Assembly (NCBI GenBank): GCA_017857595.1
Contig: JAFMCU010000003.1
Coordinates: forward strand, 7,403-71,402
Direction of reading: 5' to 3'
Length of the DNA: 64,000 nucleotides
Source: Thermoprotei archaeon
GTDB taxonomy: Archaea; Thermoproteota; Thermoprotei; Gearchaeales; Gearchaeaceae
The first letter of the stretch is position 1. Each line of letters opens with the position of its first letter. Below the pieces are notes generated by a model. The model was not told the origin of the DNA. It ran no database searches and saw nothing but the letters and a program-made list of their open reading frames with translations. Below are positions 35,038 to 59,314 of this stretch, in pieces. A program made the position numbers and the translations under genes.

Positions 35038-35961
35038 TTAGACGTCCGATGTTAAATCACATATATCTATGATAAGATTTGCTATGTCATCGAAAATTTT
35101 AATTATTGTTGTATTATTAGCTACTTCTTTAACCTTATTAATTAAATTTAATATTTCTTTCTTTACTTCTTCATTATTCATACCTTTATTCCTCAAAAAG
35201 TTAATCAATGCTTTTTCTTGAAGCTTTTGAAGTTCTAGAGCAAATTCATGAATCGTATTCAAAAATTCTTCTTTAAATTTCCCGTTGGAATTAATAAGTT
35301 CGTTAATTAATTTTGCAGTTTCATCACCTATTTTTTCTATTATTTCTCCAACAAGCCTTAAATCCATGCAATTTATCATTGTTAAATTCAATTTGTTCAT
35401 AAGAATAGGTTTAGTGATAATACTTCTCATCTGCCTTACAAAAAGGAAATATAACCTATCTATTTCTGTCTCTCTTTCTAATAATCTTTGTAAGAAATGT
35501 TTATCATTATGGGATTTTAAAGCGTCTACATACATCATTGAAGCAATTGAATTTATCCTAAATAACAATTTTATAGGATCAATTGAAGATTCATTTACCA
35601 GTGTTTGGAGAACGATTAAATTCCTTGATTCTTCAACTATTTCAATTCCACTCAATTTCTTTGCAACCTCTAATATTTCTTCTCTTTCATGTTGATTCAA
35701 CCCTGTTTTTGAGAAAATTTTTATTGTATCATATCCTAGCAAATAGTAGCTTATTATTTTTCTCGAAATGTTCTTTTTATCATATTCAATATCTACAACC
35801 TTTTCATCTTTATTTTCCTTGGCAGGGCATATAGCAATTTCTCCATTTTCTTTTATTATTAAATTTATCTCATCGCCTTTTGTAATATTTAATTTAGATA
35901 TCCATTCTTTTGGTAGCGATATATAAAAAGTGTTTCCAATTTGTTGTATCTTCCTTATCAT
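35038..35961 (-). CDS. AbrB/SpoVT-domain plus PhoU-repeat protein (phosphate-uptake-regulator-like transcription factor)
   Basis: N-terminal swapped-hairpin motif MIRKIQQIGNTFYISLPKEWISKLNITKGDEI; helical PhoU-like repeats in the remainder; 307 aa. Confidence 0.5.
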   Translation of the reverse strand: MIRKIQQIGNTFYISLPKEWISKLNITKGDEINLIIKENGEIAICPAKENKDEKVVDIEYDKKNISRKIISYYLLGYDTIKIFSKTGLNQHEREEILEVAKKLSGIEIVEESRNLIVLQTLVNESSIDPIKLLFRINSIASMMYVDALKSHNDKHFLQRLLERETEIDRLYFLFVRQMRSIITKPILMNKLNLTMINCMDLRLVGEIIEKIGDETAKLINELINSNGKFKEEFLNTIHEFALELQKLQEKALINFLRNKGMNNEEVKKEILNLINKVKEVANNTTIIKIFDDIANLIIDICDLTSDV

Positions 35962-36044: not shown

Positions 36045-36857
36045 ATGCAAGATAACCTTCAAATTAATCATTTTCTTTCAACTCTGATTGGAAAATCGAA
36101 AAATACAAAGAAAGTTTATCTACACACAATTCAAAAATTTATCAATTTTGTTAGAAAAGAAAACTATGACCAATTTGATGTGATAAACTACTTAAATTAT
36201 CTTGACTCTATAGGTCAAAAAATATCAACTATAAGGTTAGTGGCAGTAGTTTTAAAGCGTTATCTGAAATTTTTGGGAAAAGATACTTCAAAAATTGTTT
36301 TACCTAAAATGGGAAATGAAATTAAGAACATATATGTTAGAGAAAAATACTTAAAAGATTTTTTGAATGCCTTTGATTCATTTCGTGATAAACTTATTGT
36401 AAGATTTATTTTGCTAACAGGATGTAGAGTTGGGGAAGTAGCAAACCTTAGAGTTGAAGATATAGATTTTGATAAGAGAATGATTAAAATCGTTGACCAT
36501 GGAAAGTATGAAATAAAGAAGCAAAGAATAGTACCAATAGATAAAGTAACTTGTGATATGTTAAAAGAATTTATTGGTGAAAGAAAAACAGGAAGCGTAT
36601 TTAATTTGAGTGTGAGAGCTATTCAAAAGATAATAAAGAAAGGGGCATTAAAATCTAAAATACCTTATTGTGACAAAATAACTCCTCATAAACTTAGACA
36701 TACTATGGCAATTTATTGGATAACTAAAGGAGGAGATTTAAGAACGCTTCAAAGAATATTAGGTCATAATAGCATTAAGACTACAGAAATTTACTTAGAT
36801 TACGATATACAGGACATGATTAAAGTATACGATAGAATTTCTGAAAAACTTCTGTGA
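36045..36857 (+). CDS. xerA: Tyrosine recombinase XerA-like (Xer/integrase family)
   Basis: C-terminal catalytic motifs LLTGCRVGE, HKLRHTMAIYWI and LGHNSIKTTEIYLDY (R..HxxR..Y); 270 aa; no obvious mobile-element cargo around it. Confidence 0.6.
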   Translation: MQDNLQINHFLSTLIGKSKNTKKVYLHTIQKFINFVRKENYDQFDVINYLNYLDSIGQKISTIRLVAVVLKRYLKFLGKDTSKIVLPKMGNEIKNIYVREKYLKDFLNAFDSFRDKLIVRFILLTGCRVGEVANLRVEDIDFDKRMIKIVDHGKYEIKKQRIVPIDKVTCDMLKEFIGERKTGSVFNLSVRAIQKIIKKGALKSKIPYCDKITPHKLRHTMAIYWITKGGDLRTLQRILGHNSIKTTEIYLDYDIQDMIKVYDRISEKLL

Positions 36858-36904: not shown

Positions 36905-37939
36905 ATGACTCATTGGAGATTTATAACTGAAGTAGGAGATGCTGCATACAATTTAGCTGTTACTGAAGTTATTCTTAGAAGTGTAGGCAACTTGAGAGCT
37001 AACAATACATTAAGAATAGCTTATTGTAATCCAAATTCAGTAATTATTGGTATTCAACATATTCCTTCTCAAATAATTAATATTCCCGAGTTAAGAAACT
37101 TAAAGTTCAATATTGCAAGAAGGTTAACAAGTGGTTCGCCAATCTTTTTTACGGATAAACAAATAGCAATACAATTCTTTGTTTATGATCAAGCCCCTTC
37201 AAAAAATATTCTCAGGAATAAAATAATATCCTGTATAATTGAAGCATTTAAACAAATGGGATTGGAGGTTAACTTTCAAGAACCTTATAAAATTCTCTGT
37301 AATGGCAGAATGATCGCATATCTAGATACATTAAGAATAAATCATGGACTTTCGATTTCTCTTTTCATAAACGTAGAAAATGATGCAGATTACAGAGAAA
37401 AAATTCTTACTGACAAGTACGCAGCAAATTTAAAGAATTATTTATATGGAATTACAAATGTTAACTTTGAATTAGGAGGAAATTTTTCCAAAACTGAATT
37501 AATTGAAACATTTAAATCAGCAATAAAGAAGGAATTTGAAGTCAGTTTTTCTAATGAACACTTAAATCAGTATGAAAACTTACTTTTGAAGTCGCATATT
37601 GAAAAACACACAATGAGTGAATGGATCCTTGGCTTTAGAAATATTAGTGAATTTATTTCACCTGATGTAAAATCTATTACAATTAATACGAATGAAGGTT
37701 TTATAACTGTTGTTGCATCTACAAATAGAGGCTTAATAACTAATTTGCATATTTCAGGAGACTTTTACATCTATCCACCAGAGGCTTTAAATGCATTAGA
37801 AGTAGGTTTAAAATTTTCTCCAGCAGATGATAGTTACATTCAGGATTATGTTGCAAGATATATAAAGATAGCAAAGGTTCAAATATTTGGTATTAAAGAA
37901 ATTGACATCGTCGAAGCAATCAAAAAAGCAGTATTATGA
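36905..37939 (+). CDS. Lipoate-protein ligase A-family (BPL/LPL catalytic domain) protein
   Basis: 344 aa; RRLTSGSPIFF resembles the LplA RRxTGGGAV motif; see the finding on the possible missing catalytic Lys. Confidence 0.45.
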   Translation: MTHWRFITEVGDAAYNLAVTEVILRSVGNLRANNTLRIAYCNPNSVIIGIQHIPSQIINIPELRNLKFNIARRLTSGSPIFFTDKQIAIQFFVYDQAPSKNILRNKIISCIIEAFKQMGLEVNFQEPYKILCNGRMIAYLDTLRINHGLSISLFINVENDADYREKILTDKYAANLKNYLYGITNVNFELGGNFSKTELIETFKSAIKKEFEVSFSNEHLNQYENLLLKSHIEKHTMSEWILGFRNISEFISPDVKSITINTNEGFITVVASTNRGLITNLHISGDFYIYPPEALNALEVGLKFSPADDSYIQDYVARYIKIAKVQIFGIKEIDIVEAIKKAVL

Positions 37940-38609
37940 TTTTAATAAAATATATCAGAAAATATTAAATAAAAATTTTACAGTAAAAGAAGCTAGAGAA
38001 CTACAGAGATTTATTTCACAAAATCTTAACGAAGTACCTTTAAGCAATTTTAAATTGGTAGCTGGTATTGATTCTTCTTATTACAAGAACAAAATAATAA
38101 CTTCAATAGTATTTTATGACGTATCAGGCAAAAAAATCGTATATCAAAATTATTTAATAGACAAGGTCAATTTTCCCTACATACCAACTTTATTATTCTT
38201 AAGAGAAGGACCTTTGCATGTAAGAATTATAGTTGAGACAGAACTTAAGGCAGATGCATATTTAATAGACGGTCATGGAAAAGCACATCCTCTTAGAGCT
38301 GGTTTAGCGAGTTTTGTAGGTTATTTTTCTAAGATGCCTACAATAGGTGTAGCTAAGAGTAAATTGTTTGGAAGCATTGAATGGTCAAATAATGAAGGAA
38401 ATATTGTTGCAGAAAATGAAATTATTGGTAAAGTAATAAAGCTATGTAACAGAAATTTGTATATCAGTGTAGGTTGCAATATTGATTTAGAATCTAGTGT
38501 TAATGTATTTAAGGCTTCAATCGTTGGTTGTGAATGTTATCCTTTAACAAAGGCACATGAACTTTGCACAAAAATAGCTAACGATATTAAGGAAAAATCT
38601 ATAAAATGA
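37887..38609 (+). CDS. nfi: Endonuclease V
   Basis: DGHGKAHPLRAGLASFVGYFSKMPTIGVAKSKL matches the EndoV DGxGxxHPRxxGLAsHxG..PtIGVAK core. The ORF as given starts with TTG and overlaps the upstream gene by 53 nt, so the true start is uncertain. Confidence 0.7.
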   Translation: MVLKKLTSSKQSKKQYYDFNKIYQKILNKNFTVKEARELQRFISQNLNEVPLSNFKLVAGIDSSYYKNKIITSIVFYDVSGKKIVYQNYLIDKVNFPYIPTLLFLREGPLHVRIIVETELKADAYLIDGHGKAHPLRAGLASFVGYFSKMPTIGVAKSKLFGSIEWSNNEGNIVAENEIIGKVIKLCNRNLYISVGCNIDLESSVNVFKASIVGCECYPLTKAHELCTKIANDIKEKSIK

Positions 38610-45415: not shown

Positions 45416-45700
45416 ATGTCTCAAATAATGGTTAATAAAAGGAATGGTTCTAAAGAACCCTTTATAATAGAAAAAATAGTTGTAAGCTGTGTTAAGGCTG
45501 GTGCTGATATTGAAAGTGCAAGAAAGGTTGCGAAAAATATTGAGAAAGTTTTAGAACAGAGAAAAGTAGAGGTTGTTGATTCTAATGAATTGACCAAACT
45601 TGTTTTTAATGAGCTTAAAAGATTAAATGAAGAATGGTATAAAAATTGGATTGTTTATGATAAGGCAGTAAAAAGGAGAGATACAAGTAAGCTTGTTTAA
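45416..45700 (+). CDS. Standalone ATP-cone domain protein
   Basis: MVNKRNGSKEPFIIEKIVVSCVKAG...VEVVDSNELTKLVFNEL fits the ATP-cone consensus (V.KRdG..E.F...KI); 94 aa, with no attached catalytic domain. Confidence 0.5.
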   Translation: MSQIMVNKRNGSKEPFIIEKIVVSCVKAGADIESARKVAKNIEKVLEQRKVEVVDSNELTKLVFNELKRLNEEWYKNWIVYDKAVKRRDTSKLV

Positions 45701-46113
45701 TATAGTATTTTTTTATACTTAGAAATAGAATAAACTAGGCTTACTATTATAAGAATTGCAGATACATGAGCTATAGTACAATATAAACAAATATAGCCTA
45801 TAACTCCTATTTCAACAAAAATTAAATAAATCAAAGAACCAATGCCAAGAAACATAAAAATAACATGAATTAATACGTCATCATGTCCAGTTAAAGATAA
45901 TAATAGAAAAGCTATAAACCATATCATACCTAATAATGACCAAGGTATTCCAAATAAATGTGAATACGGACTATTCAATACATTTTCGCAACTTATAAAA
46001 GATAAATTTGTATTGCAACTTAACGTAGCATTAGATTCAAAAAAAGTAATATAGCTTGAATCTGAAAAACCCAAAAGAGAAAAAGCTAATATAATGTATC
46101 TAATAATAGTCAT
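45697..46113 (-). CDS. Vitamin K epoxide reductase (VKOR)-family membrane oxidoreductase
   Basis: 4 TM segments in 138 aa; loop Cys pair (LSCNTNLSFISC) followed by SPYSHLFGIPWSLLG, and a CxxC in the last TM helix (ICLYCTIAH). Confidence 0.55.
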   Translation of the reverse strand: MTIIRYIILAFSLLGFSDSSYITFFESNATLSCNTNLSFISCENVLNSPYSHLFGIPWSLLGMIWFIAFLLLSLTGHDDVLIHVIFMFLGIGSLIYLIFVEIGVIGYICLYCTIAHVSAILIIVSLVYSISKYKKILY

Positions 46114-46843
46114 TACATTTTGGTATCAAGGATAATATGAATTGATTTACATTGGGTAAAGTTATGTAACTTGATAATTTATTTAGCGCATTTAAAATCG
46201 CATTTACTAACTGCTGGCTTTCTTGATAAACTGCTTGATATAGCTGTCCTTGTTTAGAACTTATCATTTGTTGTACTTGTTGGAATGATAATCCTAAAAA
46301 TAATGCTGGGCTGATACCAGAGCCTATTCTAAAATATATTCCACCTACAGAAATAAACGGTATTGCGCCGCCTGGGTCATATGTACTAAATAGTTGTTCT
46401 TCTAAAGAATTCATTTGTTGCAACGATACGTTACCATATCTATTACTTAGCTCAACTTCCAAAAATTCAATTTTATTACTTTTGTAGATCGCATCAACAA
46501 AAGTATAAGTTGGTATATTAGGATATGTTTCTTCGTAAGGTGAACTGTAAATTGGTTGTAAGTTGCTCCAATTCCCAAAATGAGATAGAGCCATCACAAT
46601 TGCCCATCTTTCTGCAGCACAATAGGGACAGTATTCTGCACCAATATATATAAATGCTAACTTTCCATTTTGTGTAATAATTGGGTTATTTGGATAGTAT
46701 GTTAAGTTTGTAGCATAAACACCTGTTACTTTATTCGATTCTTGATTCATAATTATATAAATTGAAATTATTAAAATTAAAGCTACAATAAAAATAAATA
46801 TAAAAATATTTCTATTCTTGTTATTCTTTTTTGACTTTTTCAT
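46100..46843 (-). CDS. Membrane-anchored thioredoxin-fold protein (DsbA-like partner of VKOR)
   Basis: N-terminal signal/anchor helix, then AEYCPYCAAERW (CPYC thioredoxin active site); 247 aa; overlaps the VKOR gene start. Confidence 0.5.
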   Translation of the reverse strand: MKKSKKNNKNRNIFIFIFIVALILIISIYIIMNQESNKVTGVYATNLTYYPNNPIITQNGKLAFIYIGAEYCPYCAAERWAIVMALSHFGNWSNLQPIYSSPYEETYPNIPTYTFVDAIYKSNKIEFLEVELSNRYGNVSLQQMNSLEEQLFSTYDPGGAIPFISVGGIYFRIGSGISPALFLGLSFQQVQQMISSKQGQLYQAVYQESQQLVNAILNALNKLSSYITLPNVNQFILSLIPKCNDYY

Positions 46844-46870: not shown

Positions 46871-47920
46871 TTATTGATTCCCTCCGCTTCCTCCTTGATT
46901 ACTGTTGCCTCCTCCGCCTAACCTGTCTTTTAGTTTCTCTCTGACTTCGTCTGCAAGTTTCTTATTCTCACTTATTACACTATCCCATTTACCTTTATCA
47001 TTTCCAAGTATTTGTAATATAACATTCTCTAGTAACTTTTGCATTTCTTTTATATCTCTTGTAACTAAAGCATCTACTTCCCAACTTTCATCACCAAATT
47101 CTTTATTATACCACTTGAATCTAGGGTCTGTTTCTTTTGCTGGATTTGGAGGAAGATTGTAATCAAGAATTTGCTTCGCTGTTAATGCAACTCTAACTTC
47201 ATCTAAATCAAAGTGATGGAATATCTTAAGTAAGGCCATATAGAATCTATTAATATCCAATCCACTTGGATCATGGTCACTTATTATTAAAGCCCAAACT
47301 TTATGACCTTTATCTAATTTTTCTTTTATTTTTGGGGCTAATCTTGATATTCTGGTCCAGACTGCACCATAACCTTTGAACGAAACCAATGGAACATAAT
47401 ATTTTTCGCATACAGAATTAATTTGTCCAAAAAGTTCTCTTTTCTCTGTAAAGACATAAACACTCTTGCCTATTTCTTCCCAAGGGTCTTTACCCATTGC
47501 CGGTATTGATTCCATTGCTTTCTTTATAGCTTCATCTATATTTGAAACTCCCCATAACACAGGTTCAAAGTATAAAGATTCTGTCTCTGTAATCATGTTC
47601 CAATCAACTATACCTAATATTCTTGCTTTAAGCATGAAATCAACTAGCTTATTATAATGCTTAAGATCGTTTCTATAATCAGGTAATTCTAAGCCTACTA
47701 GATAGTAATGAACCTGTCTTATTGTTACTGGATTGTTTAACTCAGCAAAAGCCTTTTTTACAAAATCAACTGCTCTCTGTTGCCAATCCGTTTTTACAAT
47801 TCTTGCTTTCTTATCTTTAGGAACTGTTCTTGTTACATCCTTTTGCCTTCTGCCATACATCTTTTGAAGCCATTTGAGCGTATAATCAGAATCTTTGTGC
47901 TTTATAAGTTTCTCACTCAT
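46871..47920 (-). CDS. Standalone DNA topoisomerase VI subunit A / Spo11-like protein (Mini-A-like)
   Basis: 5Y-CAP-like TIRQVHYYLVG with tandem Tyr. TOPRIM-like VYVFTEKRELF...KGYGAVWTR...LIISDHDPSGLDI, paralleling Top6A VEKxaxF...KGyPDvaTR...DxDPyGxxI. Gly/Asn/Gln-rich C-terminal tail. No Top6B nearby. Confidence 0.6.
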   Translation of the reverse strand: MSEKLIKHKDSDYTLKWLQKMYGRRQKDVTRTVPKDKKARIVKTDWQQRAVDFVKKAFAELNNPVTIRQVHYYLVGLELPDYRNDLKHYNKLVDFMLKARILGIVDWNMITETESLYFEPVLWGVSNIDEAIKKAMESIPAMGKDPWEEIGKSVYVFTEKRELFGQINSVCEKYYVPLVSFKGYGAVWTRISRLAPKIKEKLDKGHKVWALIISDHDPSGLDINRFYMALLKIFHHFDLDEVRVALTAKQILDYNLPPNPAKETDPRFKWYNKEFGDESWEVDALVTRDIKEMQKLLENVILQILGNDKGKWDSVISENKKLADEVREKLKDRLGGGGNSNQGGSGGNQ

Positions 47921-48074
47921 AAACGCTATATTTTATTTTAAATATCAATTCAATATATATACTTTTAATGATGATTGATTATATAAAGAAGATGATTTTT
48001 GCATATCAATCTCAATTTTTTTAAAAACGCTTGAATTTATTTCATAATAACAAAAATATCTAAATTAATTATAA

Positions 48075-49502
48075 TTATATAAACAAAGGCTTTTCATAGC
48101 TTTTTTGCTTAAATATTGTACAATATCTAGCTCTTTGCTCTAATTCAGGGCATCTTCTTAATTTAAAGCAATTTGCATGTGTTATATAAGTCAACTCCTT
48201 TAAATCTTCTTTAATAAACACTTCATTTATTTTGTTATTTATCATGCTTGCTATGATTTGAGTTTCAGCTTGTGCTAACTCACAGCATCTATTTCCTATG
48301 AAGCCTCTAAAATTGAAAATATTATAGCCATCTAGTCTTAACGTTGAAATCATAGCTAAGTTAGATGGTAAAACTATTATAGCATCGTTTTCATCTTCAT
48401 TTTTTAATTCTTCATAAAGATTAATTGAATCATTTAAAAATTCCACATACTTTTTTTGTTTATCACTGTTTAATGTTCTGATCGAATTTGGAACTATCAT
48501 CTCCATCCTCTCTGCTGCTTCATATAAACTTATTGATTGTTGTTGAATAGTTCTATGTCTTATTATTTGGTGTCTACTTACAAGACTATCTTTAACGCCA
48601 AAAAGGAAAAATAAATCATTGAAATCTCTAAAGTTGCCTTCTTTTACTCCTTCAACTATAATATTCTTTATTTCATCTTTTGTGAATTTCTTGATTGGTT
48701 CTACATTATATGATATCAAATTAACTTCATTTTTTCCATTCTTAGAAAATACGTTCTCTATTTTTTTCGCAAAATTTGAAGATGCAAATGGAAAAGGGTT
48801 AGGATAAAATTTGCCTATCTTTATTTGACTACTTACAACATTCACTAAATTTCTATATTCTATGCTAAGGGAATCACTTAAATTGTTAATTAAATCAGTC
48901 CATATTGAAGGAATTTTTAAGCTATGTTCTTTATAATATCTGATGGTTGATAACATGTGGACTATATGACTTAAGTTTATGCTACAACTGATAAATGTAC
49001 CTATGCACAACGGTAAATGATATCTTGCATCTTCTTCAGGTTTTCTTGTTTCTAAAACTTGAATTTCGGACATCAATTCGTTATAAAAAGAATAAGCTCT
49101 CTCTACATAACTTATAATTTTATTCTCTTTATTTTTTAGTGTGTTAGGAATGAAGATAAAAATGTTCTTTTCTTCTTTCTCTTTAATTAATGGCATCGTA
49201 TATCTTAATGACTGTTGTAGAAAATTGCTTCCTATTGAATATGATACTAGCGCTAATGTTGCAAGTCTGGGTAAAATTAAAGAAGCATGTATATTTGGCA
49301 TTTCCAAAATAGATGAATAGCCATCTTTAATTGCTGCTATTATATCTGAACTTCTTTTTTCAACTTCCTCCTCATTCAATTCATAATCGATATAATGTGG
49401 AGTTTTTTTACTCCATGTAGAAATTGTTTCGGAAATTAATCGCTTAAAGGATATATTGCATTGAATATCGATAATACTTGCAGATCTTAAAATCTTTATC
49501 AT
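48075..49502 (-). CDS. thyX: Tandem-duplicated flavin-dependent thymidylate synthase (ThyX)-like protein
   Basis: First half: ...LE(M)-18 aa-SYS-IGSNFLQQSLRY... keeps SxRY but has SYS in place of RHR; ARYHLPLCIGTF matches ThyX ARivLPLnlyTrF. Second half: IIRHRTIQQQSISLY keeps RHR but loses the Arg of SxRY; IVLPSNLAMISTL...NIFNFRG. 475 aa, about twice a normal ThyX. Confidence 0.55.
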   Translation of the reverse strand: MIKILRSASIIDIQCNISFKRLISETISTWSKKTPHYIDYELNEEEVEKRSSDIIAAIKDGYSSILEMPNIHASLILPRLATLALVSYSIGSNFLQQSLRYTMPLIKEKEEKNIFIFIPNTLKNKENKIISYVERAYSFYNELMSEIQVLETRKPEEDARYHLPLCIGTFISCSINLSHIVHMLSTIRYYKEHSLKIPSIWTDLINNLSDSLSIEYRNLVNVVSSQIKIGKFYPNPFPFASSNFAKKIENVFSKNGKNEVNLISYNVEPIKKFTKDEIKNIIVEGVKEGNFRDFNDLFFLFGVKDSLVSRHQIIRHRTIQQQSISLYEAAERMEMIVPNSIRTLNSDKQKKYVEFLNDSINLYEELKNEDENDAIIVLPSNLAMISTLRLDGYNIFNFRGFIGNRCCELAQAETQIIASMINNKINEVFIKEDLKELTYITHANCFKLRRCPELEQRARYCTIFKQKSYEKPLFI

Positions 49503-49533: not shown

Positions 49534-49860
49534 TTATTTAAAAAGCTCTTTGACAAATTTAATTAGTTCAGAATTATTCGTTATTTTTACCGAATATTTT
49601 AACTCCAGTTCGTTTATAATTCTATTCAGAATTATTTGAGAGAGATCATTAAAAATTTCAATTAAAAATTCTATAAAATCATCTATTCTATCGACAATCT
49701 CATCTTTATCCAAGTTCTTTCTTATTTTCAAATGAAAATATAAAGTTTCTGTTTCATCTTTTCCAAAAAGCATCTTAAGAACGTTGTCAATAATTTTGAT
49801 TAGTTCTTTCTTTTTTTCATTTTTTGAATCTTTTTTGCTGTAATTATTTCCTTTATGCAT
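49534..49860 (-). CDS. Hypothetical small helical protein
   Basis: 108-aa ORF, K/E-rich; no motif recognised. Confidence 0.2.
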   Translation of the reverse strand: MHKGNNYSKKDSKNEKKKELIKIIDNVLKMLFGKDETETLYFHLKIRKNLDKDEIVDRIDDFIEFLIEIFNDLSQIILNRIINELELKYSVKITNNSELIKFVKELFK

Positions 49861-49967
49861 TTAGTTAAATTAATTATATTGTATATATTAATCTTACTTT
49901 AATTAAGGTAAAATTGTTATTTAGTAATTTAAAATTTTTTAAAATAAATTTCAAAAATTAAATAAAT

Positions 49968-50336
49968 TTACAAATTGTTGGAAAGTATTCTATTTTTTGC
50001 GGATTCTTCACTAATAAATTCAATAAGTTTACTATTAACTTTATTATTCAATTCCGCGATTTGCTTCTCATCTTTATTAATGATTAGATAGATTTTTGAT
50101 CCAATGTCTAGAGCTGTAATTGTACTTCTTAAAGCCTCTTTTTCTAAATTTTTTTCATCCACAACGTTAAAATATATTCTTTTATCATTATGTGAAAGTA
50201 GAATATCTATCTTATGAGCTATATTACTTTTACCAACTACCTTTACATCTTCAATCAAATTAAATTTTGTACTGCTTTTCTTATTCAACTCACTTAATAA
50301 TTCTTTAAATGCTAAATTTTTGTTCTCTAACGCCAT
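49968..50336 (-). CDS. Small PD-(D/E)xK protein, Holliday-junction-resolvase (Hjc/Hje)-like
   Basis: LAFKELLSELNKK...VGKSNIAHKIDILLSHNDKRIYFNVVDEK parallels Sulfolobus Hjc ...SAVERNIVSRLRDKG...SGSKRKDPIPDIIALKNGVIILIEMKS (E...D...(D/E)xK spacing); 122 aa. Confidence 0.35.
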   Translation of the reverse strand: MALENKNLAFKELLSELNKKSSTKFNLIEDVKVVGKSNIAHKIDILLSHNDKRIYFNVVDEKNLEKEALRSTITALDIGSKIYLIINKDEKQIAELNNKVNSKLIEFISEESAKNRILSNNL

Positions 50337-52993: not shown

Positions 52994-54361
52994 ATGGTTG
53001 TAGAATTGAGATATCAAGGAGGAACATTGGTAATTAATGGTTTTGAAACTCATTATTTACCTTCATTAAATTTTATCAAATATGATCCTAGGATTAATGC
53101 ATACAGATGCGTGGCATATAAATATGCTGATTTAATTAGCTTTTTAAAAGACAAAGAAATACCTTTTATTGATAACGCATTAAAGCCTCTACAAGGTAAA
53201 ATCGATATCAAAAGAGAGATAATATTAAGGAATTATCAAAAGGAAGCAATAGATTCATGGAAATTAAACAATTATAGAGGAATCATAGTTTTCCCTACAG
53301 GTTCTGGTAAGACATATCTTGCTATTCAGGCGATGCAAATGTTAAACAAGTCAACTTTGATAACTGTTCCTACAATTGAGCTTTTAAACCAATGGTATAG
53401 TATTATAAACAAAACATTTTTAACAGAAGTTGGTAGACTAGGAGGAGGTTTTAAAGAAATTAAATTTATAACAGTATCAACTTACGATTCTGCATATCTT
53501 CAAGCTGAAAATCTCGGAAATAAATTTGAGTTTGTTATATTCGATGAAGTGCATCATTTAGCCAGTGAAAGTTATAGGCAAATCGCTCAAATGTTAATAG
53601 CTCCATTTAGAATGGGTCTTACAGCTACACCAGAAAGAGTTGATATGCAACATATTATATTTCCTGAGATAGTGGGGGATATTGTTTATAAAAGACGTGT
53701 AGCTGACCTCGCAGGCAAATATCTAGCAAAATTCGAAGTGATTAGGCATTATGTTAACTTAACTGAAGAAGAAAAGTTAGCTTATGAAAAGTTTAGAACA
53801 AAATTCAAGAAATTCTTTGAGGAAAATAACATCCAAATTAGAAGCTTAGAAGAATTTTATTATTTAATAATGAAAAGTGGGATGGACAGGAAGGCTAGAG
53901 AAGCTTTACTCGCTTGGAATGAGGCAAGAAAAATTGCTTTGAATGCTTCTGAAAAATTAAAAATGCTCGAAAATTTACTTAAGAAGCATAAAGGTGATCG
54001 TATTTTAATATTTACAGAGCACAATATGCTTGCTAAGGAAATATCAAAAAGATATTTGATTCCCGAAATTACATATAAAACAAATGATAAGGAAAGAGAA
54101 CAAGTTATGGAGAAATTTAGGCAAGGGATATATAATGTAATTGTTACGAGTAAGGTTTTGGAAGAAGGTATCGATGTGCCTGAAGCAAATGTTGCAATAA
54201 TTTTAAGCGGGAGTGGAAGCAAAAGGGAATTTATTCAAAGATTGGGTAGAATATTAAGGCCTAAAGAGGGTAAAATCGCTAAGTTATACGAAATAGTGAC
54301 GAGAGGTACAACAGAAGTTAATCTATCATACAGAAGGCAAGCTAAAGAGGAATTGTTTTAG
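52994..54361 (+). CDS. xpb: XPB (ERCC3/Rad25-like) SF2 DNA helicase
   Basis: VFPTGSGKTYLA (Walker A), FDEVHHL (DEVH), TATPER, and an RED-like/thumb region; 455 aa like archaeal XPBs; followed by bax1. Confidence 0.8.
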   Translation: MVVELRYQGGTLVINGFETHYLPSLNFIKYDPRINAYRCVAYKYADLISFLKDKEIPFIDNALKPLQGKIDIKREIILRNYQKEAIDSWKLNNYRGIIVFPTGSGKTYLAIQAMQMLNKSTLITVPTIELLNQWYSIINKTFLTEVGRLGGGFKEIKFITVSTYDSAYLQAENLGNKFEFVIFDEVHHLASESYRQIAQMLIAPFRMGLTATPERVDMQHIIFPEIVGDIVYKRRVADLAGKYLAKFEVIRHYVNLTEEEKLAYEKFRTKFKKFFEENNIQIRSLEEFYYLIMKSGMDRKAREALLAWNEARKIALNASEKLKMLENLLKKHKGDRILIFTEHNMLAKEISKRYLIPEITYKTNDKEREQVMEKFRQGIYNVIVTSKVLEEGIDVPEANVAIILSGSGSKREFIQRLGRILRPKEGKIAKLYEIVTRGTTEVNLSYRRQAKEELF

Positions 54362-54362
54362 A

Positions 54363-55586
54363 GTGCTACCAAGTGAGTTAGCAAGATATAAAATAATTAA
54401 GAATCAATATATTGTTCCTTTGTTTGCTGAAGTTAATGAAGAAAATTTGTTCATAGCTGATTCTTTAATAAAATGTTATGAAGAAAATGTAAATAAAAAA
54501 ATTTTAGATTTAAACAACTCAATTCGAGAACTTGAATTCATGGCTAATGCATTTGGATACGATTTTAAGCTTGTAAGAGGATTGAAATCATTATTAGATA
54601 GAAGAATAAGGCTAAATGATAACGTTGATGAAAATCTAATATTTGAAATCCGGTCTCAAATATTTGAGTTAAGTAATAAAATGTATAAGGGATCAGTTTT
54701 AAATGAAAACGAGAGAGATAAAATATTTTCCATTATTGCTGAAAAATATAAAATTAGCAAAGAAAAAGTTGAAGAATTGTTCCTTTCAGTATATGAGGAT
54801 GAAATGTTCATTAAAGGCTTTGAGAGTATTTCTCCTGAAGAATTGATTAAGCAATACAATCTTTCATTGCTTCAAACAATTCTCTTTAAGTGTAAACAAT
54901 TGCAAATAACGGTCGATTTAACCGGTCATGATATGCGTTTATTGCTTTGGAGTATAAAAAAGTTAGGATTGTTATATCATGCTGAAAATAATTTTAACAA
55001 AATAAACTTGATCATCGACGGTCCTTTGTCTATTTTAAAGCAAACAGAGAGATATGGAACAAGAATTGCAAAGCTCATTCCATTAATATTAAGTTTTAAA
55101 GATTGGAGCATAAAGGCAATTATTGTAAAGAAATTTAGAAAAATTAAAAATTTTGAAAAAAATTATACTTTATTGATTAGCAAAAATCTTGCTTCTTATT
55201 TTCCAAAATATGAACATAAAGAAATAACATATGATAGCGAAGTGGAAGCAGATTTAGCAAAAAAGCTAGTAACTGTTGGGGGTGAATGGCAAGTAATAAG
55301 AGAGCCAGAACCGATAATTTCTGGCTCAACAATATTCATACCAGATTTTGCATTAATAAAAGGAGATAAGAAGGTTTATTTAGAAATCGTAGGATTTTGG
55401 ACGCCTGATTATTTAAAAAGGAAATTAGAAAAAATAAAATCATTAAAAGGAATAAATTTGATATTGGCGATAGATGAATCTTTACATGAATTTAAAATAG
55501 ATGATGTTGGAAATTTTAATATTATCAAATATAACAAAAAGGTTTCTTCTATTGATATTATAAAAATATTGAAAAAATTTGAATAA
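54363..55586 (+). CDS. bax1: Bax1 (XPB-associated nuclease, DUF790)
   Basis: Immediately downstream of xpb with a 1-nt gap. C-terminal nuclease-like IFIPDFALIKGDKKVYLEIVGFWTPDYLKRK (PD...E.K-type core); 407 aa. Confidence 0.6.
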   Translation: MLPSELARYKIIKNQYIVPLFAEVNEENLFIADSLIKCYEENVNKKILDLNNSIRELEFMANAFGYDFKLVRGLKSLLDRRIRLNDNVDENLIFEIRSQIFELSNKMYKGSVLNENERDKIFSIIAEKYKISKEKVEELFLSVYEDEMFIKGFESISPEELIKQYNLSLLQTILFKCKQLQITVDLTGHDMRLLLWSIKKLGLLYHAENNFNKINLIIDGPLSILKQTERYGTRIAKLIPLILSFKDWSIKAIIVKKFRKIKNFEKNYTLLISKNLASYFPKYEHKEITYDSEVEADLAKKLVTVGGEWQVIREPEPIISGSTIFIPDFALIKGDKKVYLEIVGFWTPDYLKRKLEKIKSLKGINLILAIDESLHEFKIDDVGNFNIIKYNKKVSSIDIIKILKKFE

Positions 55587-57363: not shown

Positions 57364-58569
57364 ATGAAAGAAATTTCTAAAGTTTTCAATAAAGGTTCTG
57401 TATTATTGGTTAGAGGTCCAGCCTCGATTAAAGTTATTAAAGGGAAAGTAAGCTGTCTCTCAAATTTTATATCATATTCACCTGTGATTGTGAGAAAATG
57501 GAAAGTTTTACCTCTTGAATGTGAAGATGATATATGTGAAGTTTCTATTTTAGCTTCCGACAACTCTTACGTTGAAGTTGCCAGCTCAAATTATGGGACA
57601 TATATTTGGAAACATTATGTCGAAAATATATTAGAAAATTTAGGAGGAAAATATAAAAAGATTGTAATCATAGGTGCAACTGATGCAGGAAAGTCAACGT
57701 TTTCTGTGTATTTAATTAATCTTGCATTAAGTAAAAATCTCCTACCTGGAATAATAGATGCTGACGTAGGTCAAAGTGATCTTACACCACCTTCATTCAT
57801 AGGATGTAAAAAGATTAAAAAGCAAATTTTCGACCTTAGAGATGAGAAGGCAGATTACACGTTAGCTATAGGAGTTATCGACTCATTTCATTTTAATGAT
57901 TTAATTATAAATGTAATAAAGAAAGAAATTGAATTACTACAAGATGCAAATATAATTATCATAAATACGGATGGATTTGTTGTTGATAAAGGTTTAGAGA
58001 ATAAGATATCTTTAATAAATCAAATTAATCCTGATTTAATTTTTATACTAGGCAATACTGAATTGTTTTCAAAAATTATTGAACTTTACAAAGAAAAATG
58101 TATGATTTTACCTAGGTGTGATATAATCAGAGATAGAAATGAAAGAGCAGAAAGAAGAGAAATACAATATCAAAAATATTTGATAGATTCAAAGAAAAAA
58201 ATTATTAACTTAACTAACTTAAAGATTGGACTTTTTGGTAGAATCTATGAGAAAACTTTAGTTGAGAAAGATACAGTTACAATGTTTAGTAAAGATAATT
58301 ACGCTTTAAAGATTTTTCCAAGTAAGTATGAGATGTTTATTATAAATTCGATGGAAAAAACCACCTTCATAACAAATGAATCATTGAGGGGTATGTTCGT
58401 AGGATTATCTGAAGATGAATTTATTATAGGATTTGGTGTAATAGAATCGTTCAATGGAAGTAAAATAAGAATTTTAACAAATTTTGATGGTAAATTTGAT
58501 TGTATTTGGTTAACTACAATACGAATTACAAAAACGGGCGAACAGAAAATAAGCTTAAGATTTATTTAA
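57364..58569 (+). CDS. Clp1/Grc3-family polynucleotide 5'-kinase
   Basis: IVIIGATDAGKSTFS (P-loop), IIDADVGQS, and a Walker-B-like IINTDG; 401 aa. Confidence 0.6.
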   Translation: MKEISKVFNKGSVLLVRGPASIKVIKGKVSCLSNFISYSPVIVRKWKVLPLECEDDICEVSILASDNSYVEVASSNYGTYIWKHYVENILENLGGKYKKIVIIGATDAGKSTFSVYLINLALSKNLLPGIIDADVGQSDLTPPSFIGCKKIKKQIFDLRDEKADYTLAIGVIDSFHFNDLIINVIKKEIELLQDANIIIINTDGFVVDKGLENKISLINQINPDLIFILGNTELFSKIIELYKEKCMILPRCDIIRDRNERAERREIQYQKYLIDSKKKIINLTNLKIGLFGRIYEKTLVEKDTVTMFSKDNYALKIFPSKYEMFIINSMEKTTFITNESLRGMFVGLSEDEFIIGFGVIESFNGSKIRILTNFDGKFDCIWLTTIRITKTGEQKISLRFI

Positions 58570-59314
58570 AATTAAATATTTCTTGTGCGTTTTTTGTTGT
58601 TGCATTAATAACTTCATTAATAGGTATTTTTTTAATTTCAGCTATTTTGGCTGCAGATATTACGATGTTAGAAGGAGTATTAATTATATCTTTTGTCGGT
58701 CCTAATACAGGGGCATCGCTCTCTAGTAGAATTTTATCCAAAGGTAGATGTTTAGCCATTTTTTGTTTCTGTTCAGATCTAACTATTGAAGGAGGGATAG
58801 AAAAATAGAAACCTTTTTTGACTCCTTCAATTGCATAACCTACTGAACCATCAAATGCATGCATTATAACTCTTTTAGCTCCTTCTTCTGTTAATATTTT
58901 AATAGCATATTTTCCAGCACTTCTAGAATGAACTACTATTGGCATATTTAGTTCATTAGAAAAACTAATCCAATTTTTGAATATCGTTTCTTGTTTCTTT
59001 TTTTCTTCTTCTTTTATAAATATAAAATAATCTAATCCAACTTCGCCTATTCCAATTATTTTATTAATTCTTCTTCTTATTTCCATCATAAACTCATTTA
59101 CTTTATCTAAATCTAAAATTGTATAATCTAAGCTTGCTGTACAAAATATTAAACTTGGATATTTTTCCATGATTAGAAAGGTTTTTTCTAATGAATCGAT
59201 ATTTAATGCTGATGAAACAATCTTTGTAACTCCTACCTTAACAGCGTTGGATATTATTTCATCTCTATTTGAATCAAACTCTTTTGCATCAATATGACAA
59301 TGTACATCTATCAT
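58562..59314 (-). CDS. tatD: TatD-family metal-dependent deoxyribonuclease/hydrolase
   Basis: MIDVHCHID, GEVGLDY, VVHSRSA, HAFDGS, ESDAP motifs. Confidence 0.75.
   Translation of the reverse strand: MIDVHCHIDAKEFDSNRDEIISNAVKVGVTKIVSSALNIDSLEKTFLIMEKYPSLIFCTASLDYTILDLDKVNEFMMEIRRRINKIIGIGEVGLDYFIFIKEEEKKKQETIFKNWISFSNELNMPIVVHSRSAGKYAIKILTEEGAKRVIMHAFDGSVGYAIEGVKKGFYFSIPPSIVRSEQKQKMAKHLPLDKILLESDAPVLGPTKDIINTPSNIVISAAKIAEIKKIPINEVINATTKNAQEIFNFK

What the first reader, a model, noticed from the sequence alone, without database searches (positions are those of the whole stretch)
46871..47920. Standalone Topo VI-A / Spo11-like protein (Mini-A-like) with no B subunit nearby
The 349-aa product carries both halves of the type IIB topoisomerase A-subunit catalytic machinery. 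One is a 5Y-CAP-like segment with tandem tyrosines (TIRQVHYYLVG). The other is a TOPRIM segment with Glu (VYVFTEKRELF), a KGYGAVWTR segment matching KGyPDvaTR, and an acidic DxD..G cluster (ISDHDPSGLDI). It is shorter than canonical Top6A, ends in an unusual Gly/Asn/Gln-rich tail (GGGGNSNQGGSGGNQ), and no GHKL-ATPase Top6B gene is adjacent. Its neighbours are a thioredoxin-like gene and a tandem ThyX-like gene. Standalone A-subunit homologues have been reported mainly on mobile elements and have no known function. A chromosomal copy beside nucleotide-metabolism and resolvase-like genes could be a DNA break/rejoining or DNA-processing module of unknown role.
Basis: partly seen in the sequence, partly recalled or inferred. 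Interest (0 to 1): 0.7.

Follow-up and report, generated by a model that had tools for sequence, protein, structure and literature searches.

The report
Host-domesticated Mini-A topoisomerase-like gene
A hot-spring archaeon keeps in its own chromosome, and conserves about as tightly as a core translation factor, a small DNA-cutting protein (Mini-A) so far described only as a gene of viruses and mobile elements, which suggests the cell has taken it over for a job of its own.

Summary

The new point is context. The family is very large (about 13,000 clusters at 50% identity) and mostly virus-borne. This clade, found in YNPFFA-type hot-spring Thermoproteota, instead sits alone among housekeeping genes in five different chromosomal neighbourhoods, with no viral genes, no B subunit and no flanking repeats. 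Its synonymous sites are as saturated as its neighbours', but it changes 2-5 times less at the protein level (dN/dS 0.07-0.10). It is 88.8% identical where EF-2 is 89.6%. Its nearest relatives (38-45% identity) lie in archaeal mobile-element replication modules (UDG, PolB, ERCC4 nuclease, Mini-A).

Best reading: a gene captured once from a mobile element and now a constrained host enzyme that breaks and rejoins DNA through Tyr72. Its cellular role is unknown.

The parts
46871..47920 (-). Complete Mini-A coding sequence (349 aa plus TAA stop)
   Evidence: ORF listing. PHROG 6247 'DNA topoisomerase' E=1e-46 over residues 64-331. 1152 homologues. AF2 model pLDDT 87.1, pTM 0.79.
47789..47920 (-). 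Archaeal-type N-terminal extension (aa 1-44): short helix YTLKWLQKMYGR followed by a basic linker (14 K/R, pI 10.3)
   Evidence: Present in the chromosomal clade and in archaeal MGE relatives, absent from the roughly 300-aa phage-type proteins. Nearly invariant within the chromosomal clade. Residues 1-20 have pLDDT 92-95. Charge. Function inferred only: an extra DNA contact or a partner contact.
47486..47788 (-). Winged-helix 5Y-CAP-like domain (aa 45-145)
47705..47719 (-). R68-Q-V-H-Y72: predicted catalytic tyrosine motif (R-x-x-[Y/F/H]-Y)
   Evidence: R68 and Y72 are invariant in 31 sequences. The spacing equals the R-x-x-Y/F-Y motif described for Topo VI and Mini-A. Coordinates checked.
47051..47485 (-). 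Toprim domain (aa 146-290)
47444..47446 (-). E159, the Toprim metal-site glutamate (in VFTEKRE)
   Evidence: Invariant together with K160. Placed on the Top6A Toprim glutamate (ILAIETAG) in the extended HHalign alignment.
47261..47278 (-). D215-H-D217-P-S-G220, the DxDxxG Mg2+-binding motif
   Evidence: All six residues invariant. Aligned to DGDPYG of Top6A by phmmer and HHalign.
47120..47152 (-). PPNPAKETDPR (aa 257-267), a highly conserved family motif after the Toprim core
   Evidence: P257, P260, K262, D265 and R267 invariant. Aligns to LPTHPLKEQD of Top6A.
47066..47086 (-). S-W280-E-V-D-A-L285, the Mini-A-type T2BI box (xWELDAL)
   Evidence: W280, E281, D283 and A284 invariant. [quoted passage not shown]
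46916..47050 (-). Long C-terminal helix (aa 291-335)
   Evidence: A single helix H292-335 at pLDDT 87-98, conserved in length across the family. Its role is not established; dimerisation is a possibility.
46874..46915 (-). Gly/Asn/Gln-rich low-complexity tail (aa 336-349)
   Evidence: pLDDT below 65. Expanded only in the window and in L006; the rest of the clade ends in a short GG(G/S).
47952..47964 (-). TATA-like box AAGTATATATATT, 32-44 nt upstream of the ATG (candidate own promoter)
   Evidence: Sequence. Similar A/T-rich TATATA boxes lie about 30-45 nt upstream of the orthologues in L001, L006, L008, L011 and L012, although their upstream genes differ. This is weak evidence in a 30% GC genome.

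Best explanation
[quoted passage not shown] It is the archaeal subtype, which has an extra basic N-terminal arm.

Unlike the rest of this very large, mainly virus-borne family, the clade it belongs to is a resident chromosomal gene of YNPFFA-type hot-spring Thermoproteota. Most likely it was captured once from the replication module of an archaeal mobile element. Since then it has been inherited vertically under purifying selection as strong as that on EF-2. That implies a host function.

Inferred mechanism: two copies form a Top6A/Spo11-like dimer on duplex DNA. Tyr72 of each copy, positioned by Arg68, attacks a phosphodiester next to the Mg2+ site (E159, D215, D217) and forms a 5'-phosphotyrosyl link. 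The break is then either resealed or handed to replication or recombination enzymes. With no ATP-operated B-subunit gate, it probably cannot carry out controlled strand passage. It therefore most likely acts as an ATP-independent DNA breaking-and-rejoining (or nicking) enzyme on replication or recombination intermediates.

Shown: family membership, fold, intact catalytic residues, chromosomal context, long residence and strong constraint. Inferred: dimerisation, chemistry, substrate and cellular role.
For: Membership:
- PHROG 6247 E=1e-46.
- All Mini-A motifs are invariant across 31 sequences, judged against the criteria in PMC7671362.
- The family profile finds 13,163 clusters at 50% identity.

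Fold:
- The only significant Foldseek hit in the PDB is Top6A in the Topo VI-DNA complex (E=1.4e-6, 325 columns).

Chromosomal, not viral:
- The window is core chromosome: complex I, SDH, ETF, GlnA, XPB-Bax1, EndoV.
- Orthologues lie beside EF-2, DNA ligase, S8e, TFIIB, ProRS, Dfp, MoxR and CTP synthase, in five different neighbourhoods.
- There are no tRNA genes and no flanking repeats. The only recombinase is XerA-like, 10 kb away.
- Peptides specific to this clade find nothing in IMG/VR. The family motifs find at least 572 viral contigs, all 35% identical or less.

Long residence and constraint:
- Window vs L006: pS 0.77 (neighbours 0.67-0.85), pN 0.061 (neighbours 0.19-0.34).
- L001 vs L009: pS 0.80 and pN 0.066, against PPDK 0.112 and DNA ligase 0.189.
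- dN/dS 0.099 and 0.065 where dS can be measured.
- Mini-A 88.8% vs EF-2 89.6% identity in the same genome pair, with synteny on both sides.
- GC3 is at the upper edge of the neighbours' range.

Origin:
- In an NJ tree the chromosomal clade is tight and monophyletic, nested in archaeal MGE sequences.
- Those MGE copies sit in UDG-PolB-ERCC4/HhH-Mini-A modules or ORFan-rich contigs.
- Phage copies sit among helicase, primase, ligase, RecT, RNase H and ThyX genes.

Mechanistic precedent: mouse SPO11 alone cleaves DNA and stays covalently attached (PMC11922746, abstract seen).
Against: - No biochemistry exists for any Mini-A, so the chemistry is inferred entirely from conserved residues and fold.
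- The 5Y-CAP half is not detected by any sequence or profile method I could run. A CAP-only HHalign gives E=0.41, and the extended alignment is out of register there. My Top6A profile was very shallow (Neff 1.4-1.8).
- Five different neighbourhoods at 72-92% protein identity could also mean the gene moves on its own.
- The tree is distance-based, with no support values.
- I could not test whether the gene is present in all genomes of the lineage, whether it is single-copy, or whether these genomes also carry canonical Topo VI.
- The contexts of the 56%-identity relatives (P0007, P0008) are on contigs too short to judge.
- Nothing in the data identifies the substrate or the cellular process.
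Confidence: 0.6

Rival explanations
1. It is an alternative A subunit that works with a B-type ATPase encoded elsewhere (the host's own Top6B or an unrecognised 'Mini-B'). The resulting complex would be a second ATP-dependent type IIB topoisomerase or a Spo11/Top6BL-like complex. The archaeal-type N-terminal extension would be the docking element.
For: Archaeal-type Mini-As carry a conserved N-terminal extension of about 35-45 aa that phage-type proteins from bacteria lack. It is nearly invariant in the chromosomal clade, and its first 20 residues are modelled with pLDDT above 90. [quoted passage not shown] Foldseek aligns almost the whole length, 325 columns, to full-length Top6A. Thermoproteota normally possess Topo VI (general knowledge; PMC8185306).
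Against: No GHKL or transducer gene lies next to the gene in any of five chromosomal neighbourhoods or in the MGE and phage contexts. By contrast, top6B lies directly upstream of canonical top6A in the bacterial example I examined (L103). There are 71 residues before the tyrosine, still about 30 fewer than in Top6A. The extension is mostly a basic, low-confidence linker, which looks more like a DNA-binding arm. The T2BI box is of Mini-A type, not Topo VI type.
Confidence: 0.13
2. It is simply part of an integrated virus or other mobile element, or a remnant of one. This is the default reading in the literature, and it would mean no host function.
For: Every published account places Mini-A on viruses, proviruses or MGEs. 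Its nearest relatives outside the clade are MGE-borne. A ThyX-like gene lies next to it in the window, and ThyX or ThyA also occurs near viral and MGE copies. The gene occupies different neighbourhoods in different genomes.
Against: No viral or MGE hallmark gene lies within at least 10 kb on either side in the window or in the long orthologous contigs. There is no tRNA target and there are no terminal repeats. The nearby recombinase is XerA-like, with 11 cellular genes in between. Synteny with housekeeping genes is kept on both sides between species whose synonymous sites are saturated. dN/dS is 0.07-0.10, and the gene is the slowest-evolving one in each neighbourhood, the opposite of a decaying remnant. 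The clade is absent from IMG/VR.
Confidence: 0.07
3. It is a host defence nuclease that cuts invading DNA, analogous to the Topo VI-A-like nucleases MksG/JetD of the Wadjet/MksBEFG systems.
Against: No PADLOC model matches. No condensin-like MksBEF/JetABC genes, or any other defence genes, are nearby. The match to MksG covers only the Toprim-sized part, whereas Top6A matches over 209-215 residues. The invariant R-x-x-H-Y tyrosine motif points to covalent topoisomerase-type chemistry. Conservation at the level of EF-2 and stable housekeeping synteny are not typical of defence genes.
Confidence: 0.05
4. It acts as a replication initiator, by rolling-circle or nick-priming, as proposed for skuldvirus Mini-A. 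It would have been captured together with an origin and would now fire a chromosomal origin.
For: The initiator hypothesis for viral Mini-A is in the literature. There is tight linkage to PolB in archaeal MGEs. Capture of extrachromosomal replication modules by crenarchaeal chromosomes has precedent (general knowledge).
Against: The intergenic regions flanking the gene are short (27-180 nt). They show no conserved repeats or shared motif beyond a TATA-like box. No origin-like region travels with the gene across the five neighbourhoods. Many phages that carry Mini-A also encode their own primase-helicase and other replication proteins.
Confidence: 0.1

Closest known systems
Mini-A (Topo mini-A), the standalone type IIB topoisomerase A-subunit homologues of Takahashi et al. 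2020 (PMC7671362); PHROG 6247
   Same: The architecture is the same: 5Y-CAP plus Toprim, with no ATPase. The R-x-x-aromatic-Y tyrosine motif, the Toprim E and DxDxxG, and the diagnostic xWELDAL box are all present and invariant. No B-subunit gene is nearby.
   Different: It is not on a virus, provirus or plasmid. It is a solitary chromosomal gene among housekeeping genes, vertically inherited and very strongly constrained. At 349 aa it is longer than the typical 300 aa, because of a basic N-terminal extension shared with archaeal MGE copies and a Gly-rich tail. His replaces Tyr/Phe just before the catalytic tyrosine.
Topoisomerase VI subunit A (Top6A; PDB 1D3Y, 2ZBK, 2Q2E, 9O8P)
   Same: Best structural match over both domains. 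The Toprim core is homologous at profile level. The spacing of Arg and catalytic Tyr is the same, and so are the metal ligands.
   Different: The Pfam and NCBIfam Top6A models are far below their thresholds, and TP6A_N is not detected. About 30 N-terminal residues are missing. The T2BI box is of a different type. There is no adjacent top6B, whereas top6B-top6A are adjacent in the canonical locus L103. It has an extra long C-terminal helix.
Spo11 (eukaryotic meiotic double-strand-break enzyme; PDB 8URU)
   Different: A different branch of the family. Spo11 keeps a Top6B-like partner and many accessory factors. No link to any recombination programme is shown here.
MksG / JetD nucleases of Wadjet (MksBEFG) plasmid-defence systems (PDB 8B7F)
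   Different: Only a Toprim-sized region matches (145 residues). No PADLOC hit, no SMC-like partner genes, and the tyrosine motif is invariant here.
Topo VIII (plasmid-borne fused B-A type IIB topoisomerase)
   Same: [quoted passage not shown]
   Different: Topo VIII carries the Bergerat ATPase and transducer and an RVELNAM box. This protein has neither.

Membership tests
Mini-A (Takahashi et al. 2020) | Significant full-length similarity to the family | tested here: met
   PHROG 6247 E=9.9e-47, residues 64-331 against profile positions 35-293 of 303. 1152 homologues. The profile finds 13,163 clusters.
Mini-A (Takahashi et al. 2020) | Short standalone protein with a 5Y-CAP and a Toprim domain and no ATPase domain | tested here: met
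   349 aa with no GHKL or other domain hit. Fold match to both Top6A domains. The CAP half is supported by structure only, not by sequence profiles.
Mini-A (Takahashi et al. 2020) | Conserved Arg and catalytic Tyr in R-x-x-[Y/F]-Y | tested here: met
   R68-Q-V-H71-Y72. R68 and Y72 are invariant in 31 sequences. His replaces Y/F at -1 in the archaeal subtype.
Mini-A (Takahashi et al. 2020) | Toprim metal ligands: E followed by DxDxxG | tested here: met
   E159 and D215-H-D217-P-S-G220, all invariant.
Mini-A (Takahashi et al. 2020) | T2BI box of the xWELDAL type, the motif said to discriminate Mini-A from Topo VI and Topo VIII | tested here: met
   S-W280-E-V-D-A-L285. W, E, D and A are invariant.
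Mini-A (Takahashi et al. 2020) | [quoted passage not shown] | tested here: inconclusive
   There are 71 residues before the tyrosine, against about 35-40 in phage-type Mini-A and about 93-102 in Top6A. The extra 35-45 residues are a conserved helix plus a basic linker. Whether they relate to the Top6A N-terminus could not be determined.
Mini-A (Takahashi et al. 2020) | Encoded by a virus, provirus or other mobile element (a stated characteristic of the family) | tested here: not met
   Cellular genes only around the gene in the window and in five orthologous neighbourhoods. No att-like repeats, no tRNA, no integrase other than a distant XerA-like gene. The clade is absent from IMG/VR.
Mini-A (Takahashi et al. 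2020) | No B-subunit ('Mini-B') gene in the vicinity | tested here: met
   No GHKL or transducer domain among the neighbours.
Canonical Topo VI subunit A | Matches the curated Top6A models (Pfam TP6A_N plus TOP6A-Spo11_Toprim; NCBIfam equivalogs) above threshold | tested here: not met
   PF21180 scores 14.7 bits against a cutoff of 24.1, and there is no TP6A_N hit. NF003337 scores 17 bits against 675.
Canonical Topo VI subunit A | Adjacent top6B gene forming an A2B2 enzyme | tested here: not met
   None in the window or beside any orthologue. Compare L103, where top6B is directly upstream. A distant Top6B partner cannot be excluded.
Canonical Topo VI subunit A | Top6A fold (winged-helix CAP plus Toprim) | tested here: met
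Type IIB topoisomerase activity | Mg2+-dependent DNA cleavage through a 5'-phosphotyrosyl intermediate, with or without religation or strand passage | not testable with these tools
   Needs biochemistry. None is reported for any Mini-A up to February 2026.
Topo VIII | Fused or split Bergerat ATPase plus transducer, and an RVELNAM box | tested here: not met
   No ATPase domain. The box is SWEVDAL.
MksG/JetD (Wadjet) nuclease | Encoded with MksBEF/JetABC condensin-like genes, and recognised by defence-system models | tested here: not met
   No PADLOC hit. No such neighbours. The structural match is limited to 145 residues.

The most novel reading that the evidence does not exclude
A cellular lineage has turned a viral standalone A subunit into an indispensable host enzyme that makes programmed, tyrosine-linked DNA breaks or nicks without any B subunit. 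That would be a prokaryotic parallel to the way eukaryotes recruited a Topo VI A subunit as Spo11. It would also be the first case in which Mini-A's function could be tied to a cellular process, such as replication restart, recombination initiation or chromosome resolution. A variant of this reading: the conserved archaeal N-terminal arm recruits the host Top6B or another partner, giving a second, hybrid type IIB machine.
Probability: 0.3. Interest if true: 0.85.

Novelty: new variant of a known kind. Interest (0 to 1): 0.6.

Why it matters
Mini-A is the third branch of the type IIB topoisomerase/Spo11 family. It is very abundant: about 13,000 clusters at 50% identity, at least 572 IMG/VR contigs and 77 cultured phages. 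Even so, it has had no known activity or role since its description in 2019. Every source I could read treats it as a gene of viruses and mobile elements.

A clade that is chromosomal, vertically inherited and conserved as strongly as EF-2 changes that picture. It shows that the standalone A subunit can carry a function valuable enough for a cell to keep under tight constraint. That argues against its being a mere accessory of viral replication.

It also gives experimenters a thermostable orthologue with all catalytic residues intact, and a clear comparison: domesticated against MGE-borne sister proteins at 38-45% identity, which differ mainly in the charge of the N-terminal arm.

Finally, it bears on the open question of whether the ancestor of Topo VI and Spo11 was a standalone A protein. 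It also offers an independent example of an A subunit being recruited by a host, as happened with Spo11.

Tried and rejected
- **Sequence recovery of the 5Y-CAP.** Pfam, NCBIfam and PDB phmmer/hmmsearch find only the Toprim core, at marginal E-values. HHalign of the Mini-A alignment finds the same 74 columns, at E=2e-5 to 2e-4, against Top6A Toprim fragments, one reconstructed full-length Top6A and 28 full-length Top6As. A greedy extension is out of register in the CAP, and a CAP-only comparison is null (E=0.41). My Top6A profiles were shallow (at least 75% identical, Neff 1.4-1.8), so I call this inconclusive, not negative.
- **First Top6A search.** The search seeded with a 108-aa fragment returned only Toprim-only fragments and was of little use.
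- **Structure libraries.** The BFVD viral structure library gave no meaningful match. The afdb50 library was unavailable.
- **Defence.** PADLOC found nothing for the protein, so I rejected the defence-system reading.
- **Mobile cassette.** No credible terminal direct or inverted repeats around the gene in five loci. No tRNA or Rfam features in the window.
- **Shared regulatory motif upstream of orthologues.** Only a TATA-like box, which is weak evidence in AT-rich DNA. The sigma-70 promoter and terminator scan does not apply to archaea and was at background level.
- **Functional linkage to the ThyX-like, DUF929 or VKOR neighbours.** Rejected, because that synteny exists only with the closest genome.
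- **Recombinase at 36 kb as an MGE integrase.** Rejected, because its best match is archaeal XerA over the full length.
- **Recent horizontal transfer as the cause of the high identity.** Rejected, because synonymous sites are as saturated as in the neighbours.
- **Supplementary tables of the Mini-A paper.** Not held, so I could not check whether these SAG sequences were in its dataset. The main text never mentions Crenarchaeota.
Full report
**Observation.** Every quoted peptide is present. The residues are not chance look-alikes. In an alignment of 31 homologues down to 26% identity, R68, Y72, E159, K160, D215-H-D-P-S-G220, D222, P257, P260, K262, D265, R267, Y271 and W280-E281-x-D283-A284 are invariant. 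Three corrections apply. Only the first of the 'tandem tyrosines' (Y72) is conserved, in an R-Q-x-[H/Y]-Y motif. The long Gly/Asn/Gln tail is shared only with the nearest relative, and other clade members end in a short GG(G/S).

**What the protein is.** Curated models for canonical Top6A barely see it. Pfam TOP6A-Spo11_Toprim gives E=0.031, below threshold, and there is no TP6A_N hit. An NCBIfam Top6A equivalog scores 17 bits against a cutoff of 675. PDB 1D3Y matches at E=0.006 over the Toprim core only. In contrast, PHROG 6247 ('DNA topoisomerase') matches nearly full length at E=1e-46. The paper that defined Mini-A (PMC7671362) lists these criteria: about 300 aa, 5Y-CAP plus Toprim without an ATPase, R-x-x-Y/F-Y, E plus DxDxxG, and a C-terminal xWELDAL 'T2BI' box that separates Mini-A from Topo VI and Topo VIII. 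All are met, with His in place of Tyr/Phe before the tyrosine.

**Limit of that evidence.** HHalign of the Mini-A alignment against Top6A Toprim fragments, against a reconstructed full-length Top6A from locus L103, and against 28 full-length Top6As gave the same 74-column Toprim match each time (E=1.7e-5, 2e-4 and 5.4e-5). The extended alignment puts E159 on the Top6A Toprim glutamate, but it has no confidence in the CAP and is out of register there. A CAP-only comparison is null (E=0.41). My Top6A profiles were shallow (Neff 1.4-1.8), so I regard this as inconclusive. The 5Y-CAP assignment therefore rests on four things: the fold matches, the helix-helix-helix topology of residues 45-101, the invariant Arg/Tyr pair at the canonical spacing, and the family's published alignment.

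**Context in the window.** The organism is an AT-rich archaeon (GC about 30%). The window is ordinary chromosome. It carries complex I subunits, succinate dehydrogenase, ETF, glutamine synthetase, endonuclease V, APS kinase, the XPB-Bax1 pair, TatD, an M50 protease and others. It has no Top6B or second Top6A, no tRNA or Rfam features and no viral hallmark gene. The one tyrosine recombinase lies 10 kb away, and its best match is archaeal XerA over the full length. Eleven cellular genes separate it from Mini-A.

**Relatives and their contexts.** Close relatives (72-92% identity) occur in eight species-level genomes of uncultured hot-spring Thermoproteota. These include the single-cell genomes SCGC AAA261-N23 and AAA471-B05, the latter assigned to candidate division YNPFFA. 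In all of them the gene is solitary among cellular genes, in five different neighbourhoods:

- ThyX-like | Mini-A | DUF929-VKOR (window and L006).
- DUF429 | Mini-A | EF-2, with DNA ligase, S8e, SRP19 and TFIIB nearby (L001, L002, L009, L010).
- CBS | Mini-A | Dfp, with ProRS nearby (L003-L005).
- MoxR | Mini-A | M19 dipeptidase (L007).
- MBL | Mini-A | CTP synthase (L008, partly L011 and L012).

No partner gene recurs, and no flanking repeats suggest a cassette.

**Resident or recently arrived?** Wherever two genomes share synteny, Mini-A is the most conserved gene: 92% against 46-71% (window/L006), 88.8% against 56-83% (L001/L009), 87.5% against 77% (L008/L012). High identity could mean recent transfer, so I compared synonymous and non-synonymous change. 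Mini-A's synonymous sites are as saturated as its neighbours' (pS 0.77 against 0.67-0.85; 0.80 against 0.69-0.84). Its non-synonymous divergence is 2-5 times lower (pN 0.06 against 0.11-0.34). Where dS can be measured, dN/dS is 0.099 and 0.065. In L001/L009 synteny holds on both sides, and Mini-A (88.8%) is as conserved as EF-2 (89.6%). Its GC3 is at the upper edge of the neighbours' range. The gene has therefore been in place as long as its neighbours and is under very strong purifying selection. That is incompatible with a decaying provirus remnant.

**The wider family.** The Mini-A profile finds 13,163 clusters at 50% identity among 1.84 billion representative proteins. At least 572 IMG/VR viral contigs carry a family member, but none is more than about 35% identical to this protein. 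Peptide patterns specific to its clade find nothing viral. Seventy-seven cultured phage genomes carry a homologue at under 35% identity. In Xylella phage Salvo, for example, it ends an early operon.

The next-closest archaeal relatives (38-45% identity, sharing the N-terminal extension) are in mobile-element contexts. Two show a recurrent UDG - family-B polymerase - ERCC4/HhH nuclease - Mini-A module with ThyA nearby (L099, L100). One is an ORFan-rich contig with PolB, a PD-(D/E)XK nuclease and methyltransferases (L014). One carries T2SSE/F-like ATPase genes (L015). A bacterial member lies in a prophage next to dnaN. Across 80 viral loci, the recurrent neighbours are an SF2 helicase, a DUF3987 primase-helicase, an ATP-dependent DNA ligase (directly upstream in 7 loci), RNase H, RecT, a PD-(D/E)XK nuclease and ThyX.

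A neighbour-joining tree places the chromosomal copies as one tight clade nested within the archaeal MGE sequences (no support values). The simplest history is a single capture from an MGE replication module.

**Mechanism.** The following is shown: intact catalytic residues, a Top6A-like fold, no ATPase partner nearby, and strong constraint. The following is inferred from established type IIB enzymology. A homodimer forms two hybrid active sites. Tyr72 (with Arg68) attacks the DNA backbone beside the Mg2+ held by E159/D215/D217 and forms a 5'-phosphotyrosyl link. The break is then resealed or processed. Without a B-subunit ATP gate there is nothing to hold a cleaved dimer together during strand passage, so a breaking-and-rejoining or nicking role is more likely than true type II topoisomerase activity. 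Mouse SPO11 alone was recently shown to make covalent double-strand breaks in vitro (PMC11922746, abstract), which is a precedent for activity without a B subunit.

The constant association of MGE and phage copies with replication and recombination genes points to action on replication or recombination intermediates. The basic N-terminal arm, which is more basic in the chromosomal clade than in MGE sisters, may add DNA contacts or recruit a partner. The cellular process served is unknown.

**Rivals.** I considered four.

- A hidden B-type partner, possibly the host Top6B docking on the N-terminal arm. I give this 0.13. It is attractive but unsupported by gene context.
- A provirus remnant (0.07). 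The selection and synteny data contradict it.
- A defence nuclease of the MksG/JetD kind (0.05). There is no PADLOC hit, there are no partner genes, the tyrosine is invariant, and the evolutionary rate is wrong for a defence gene.
- A captured replication initiator (0.10). No origin-like DNA travels with the gene.

**Novelty.** Every source I could read describes Mini-A as a gene of viruses, proviruses or MGEs with unknown function. These are the founding paper, two archaeal topoisomerase reviews (2021, December 2024), two Topo VI/Spo11 phylogenomic surveys (2022, 2024) and two Asgard-virus papers (2021, February 2026). The founding paper contrasts 'virus (Mini-A)' with 'non-mobile chromosomal (Topo VI)' and never mentions Crenarchaeota. 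The protein is thus a member of a known family, but a chromosomal, vertically inherited clade conserved at the level of EF-2 is a new variant of it.

**Caveats.**
- The host lineage is uncultured.
- The contexts of the 56%-identity relatives are unresolved.
- The tree has no support values.
- Nothing here reveals the substrate.

Noticed in passing
window 48075-49502 (-): A 475-aa ThyX-like protein lies directly upstream of Mini-A. It has two Thy1-matching stretches (Pfam E=1.7e-30) but scores below the TIGR02170 ThyX cutoff. Only one RHR-x5-S ThyX motif is present (residue 315, C-terminal half). The N-terminal half looks like a degenerate copy, and the two halves are not BLAST-similar. It is syntenic only in L006 (68% identity). 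ThyX or ThyA also occurs near viral and MGE Mini-A genes, so a common MGE origin of the pair cannot be excluded.
   Followed up: partly
window 45697-46843 (-): An overlapping gene pair: DUF929 (247 aa, N-terminal membrane anchor, CPYC motif) and VKOR (138 aa). It is probably an extracytoplasmic disulfide-bond formation module. It lies 27 nt downstream of Mini-A on the same strand and is syntenic in L006.
   Followed up: no
window 45416-45700 (+): A standalone 94-aa ATP-cone protein with no attached ribonucleotide reductase or NrdR domain.
   Followed up: no
window 49534-50336 (-): Two small proteins of unknown function (108 aa and 122 aa). The 122-aa one has weak CARF/Csx1-like PADLOC hits (E=0.002-0.008), and the 108-aa one has a weak DUF7145 hit. 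Both are conserved in L006 at only 46-48% identity.
   Followed up: no
window 36045-36857 (+): A 270-aa tyrosine recombinase whose best match is the archaeal XerA model (NF040815, E=1.8e-58, full length, 198 bits against a 220-bit cutoff). It is probably the chromosome-dimer resolvase, not an MGE integrase.
   Followed up: yes
window 37887-38609, 52994-55586, 57364-59314: The 25 kb around Mini-A is rich in DNA-metabolism genes: endonuclease V, the XPB helicase with its Bax1 (DUF790) nuclease partner, a Clp1-like P-loop kinase and a TatD DNase. No linkage to Mini-A is conserved in other genomes.
   Followed up: no
window 35038-35961 (-): A 307-aa protein that fuses an AbrB/MazE-type antitoxin-like DNA-binding domain to a PhoU domain.
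   Followed up: no
window 11194-12477 (+): A 427-aa ORF with no Pfam match at E<=1e-4, between the ETF genes and a run of metabolic genes.
   Followed up: no
L099 2971-7962; L100 2459-6989; L014 10001-16040: Archaeal mobile-element contigs share a replication module of uracil-DNA glycosylase, family-B DNA polymerase, ERCC4/HhH (XPF-like) nuclease and Mini-A, with ThyA or an asparagine-synthase-like gene upstream. It is a candidate for a conserved functional unit in which Mini-A acts.
   Followed up: partly
IMG/VR loci, e.g. L056 2220-3128: An ATP-dependent DNA ligase gene sits immediately upstream of Mini-A, on the same strand, in 7 of 80 viral loci. This pairs a break-making enzyme with a break-sealing one.
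   Followed up: partly
chromosomal orthologues L001, L003, L006-L012 (C-termini): All chromosomal-clade proteins end in Leu/Met-Gly-Gly(-Gly/Ser), whereas the MGE sister proteins do not. In the window and in L006 this has expanded into a Gly/Asn/Gln-rich tail.
   Followed up: no
L103 2067-4510: In a bacterial 428-kb contig, canonical top6A is split by a frameshift, so only its Toprim half (169 aa) was called as a gene. Many database 'Top6A' entries of 146-189 aa look like the same kind of fragment.
   Followed up: partly
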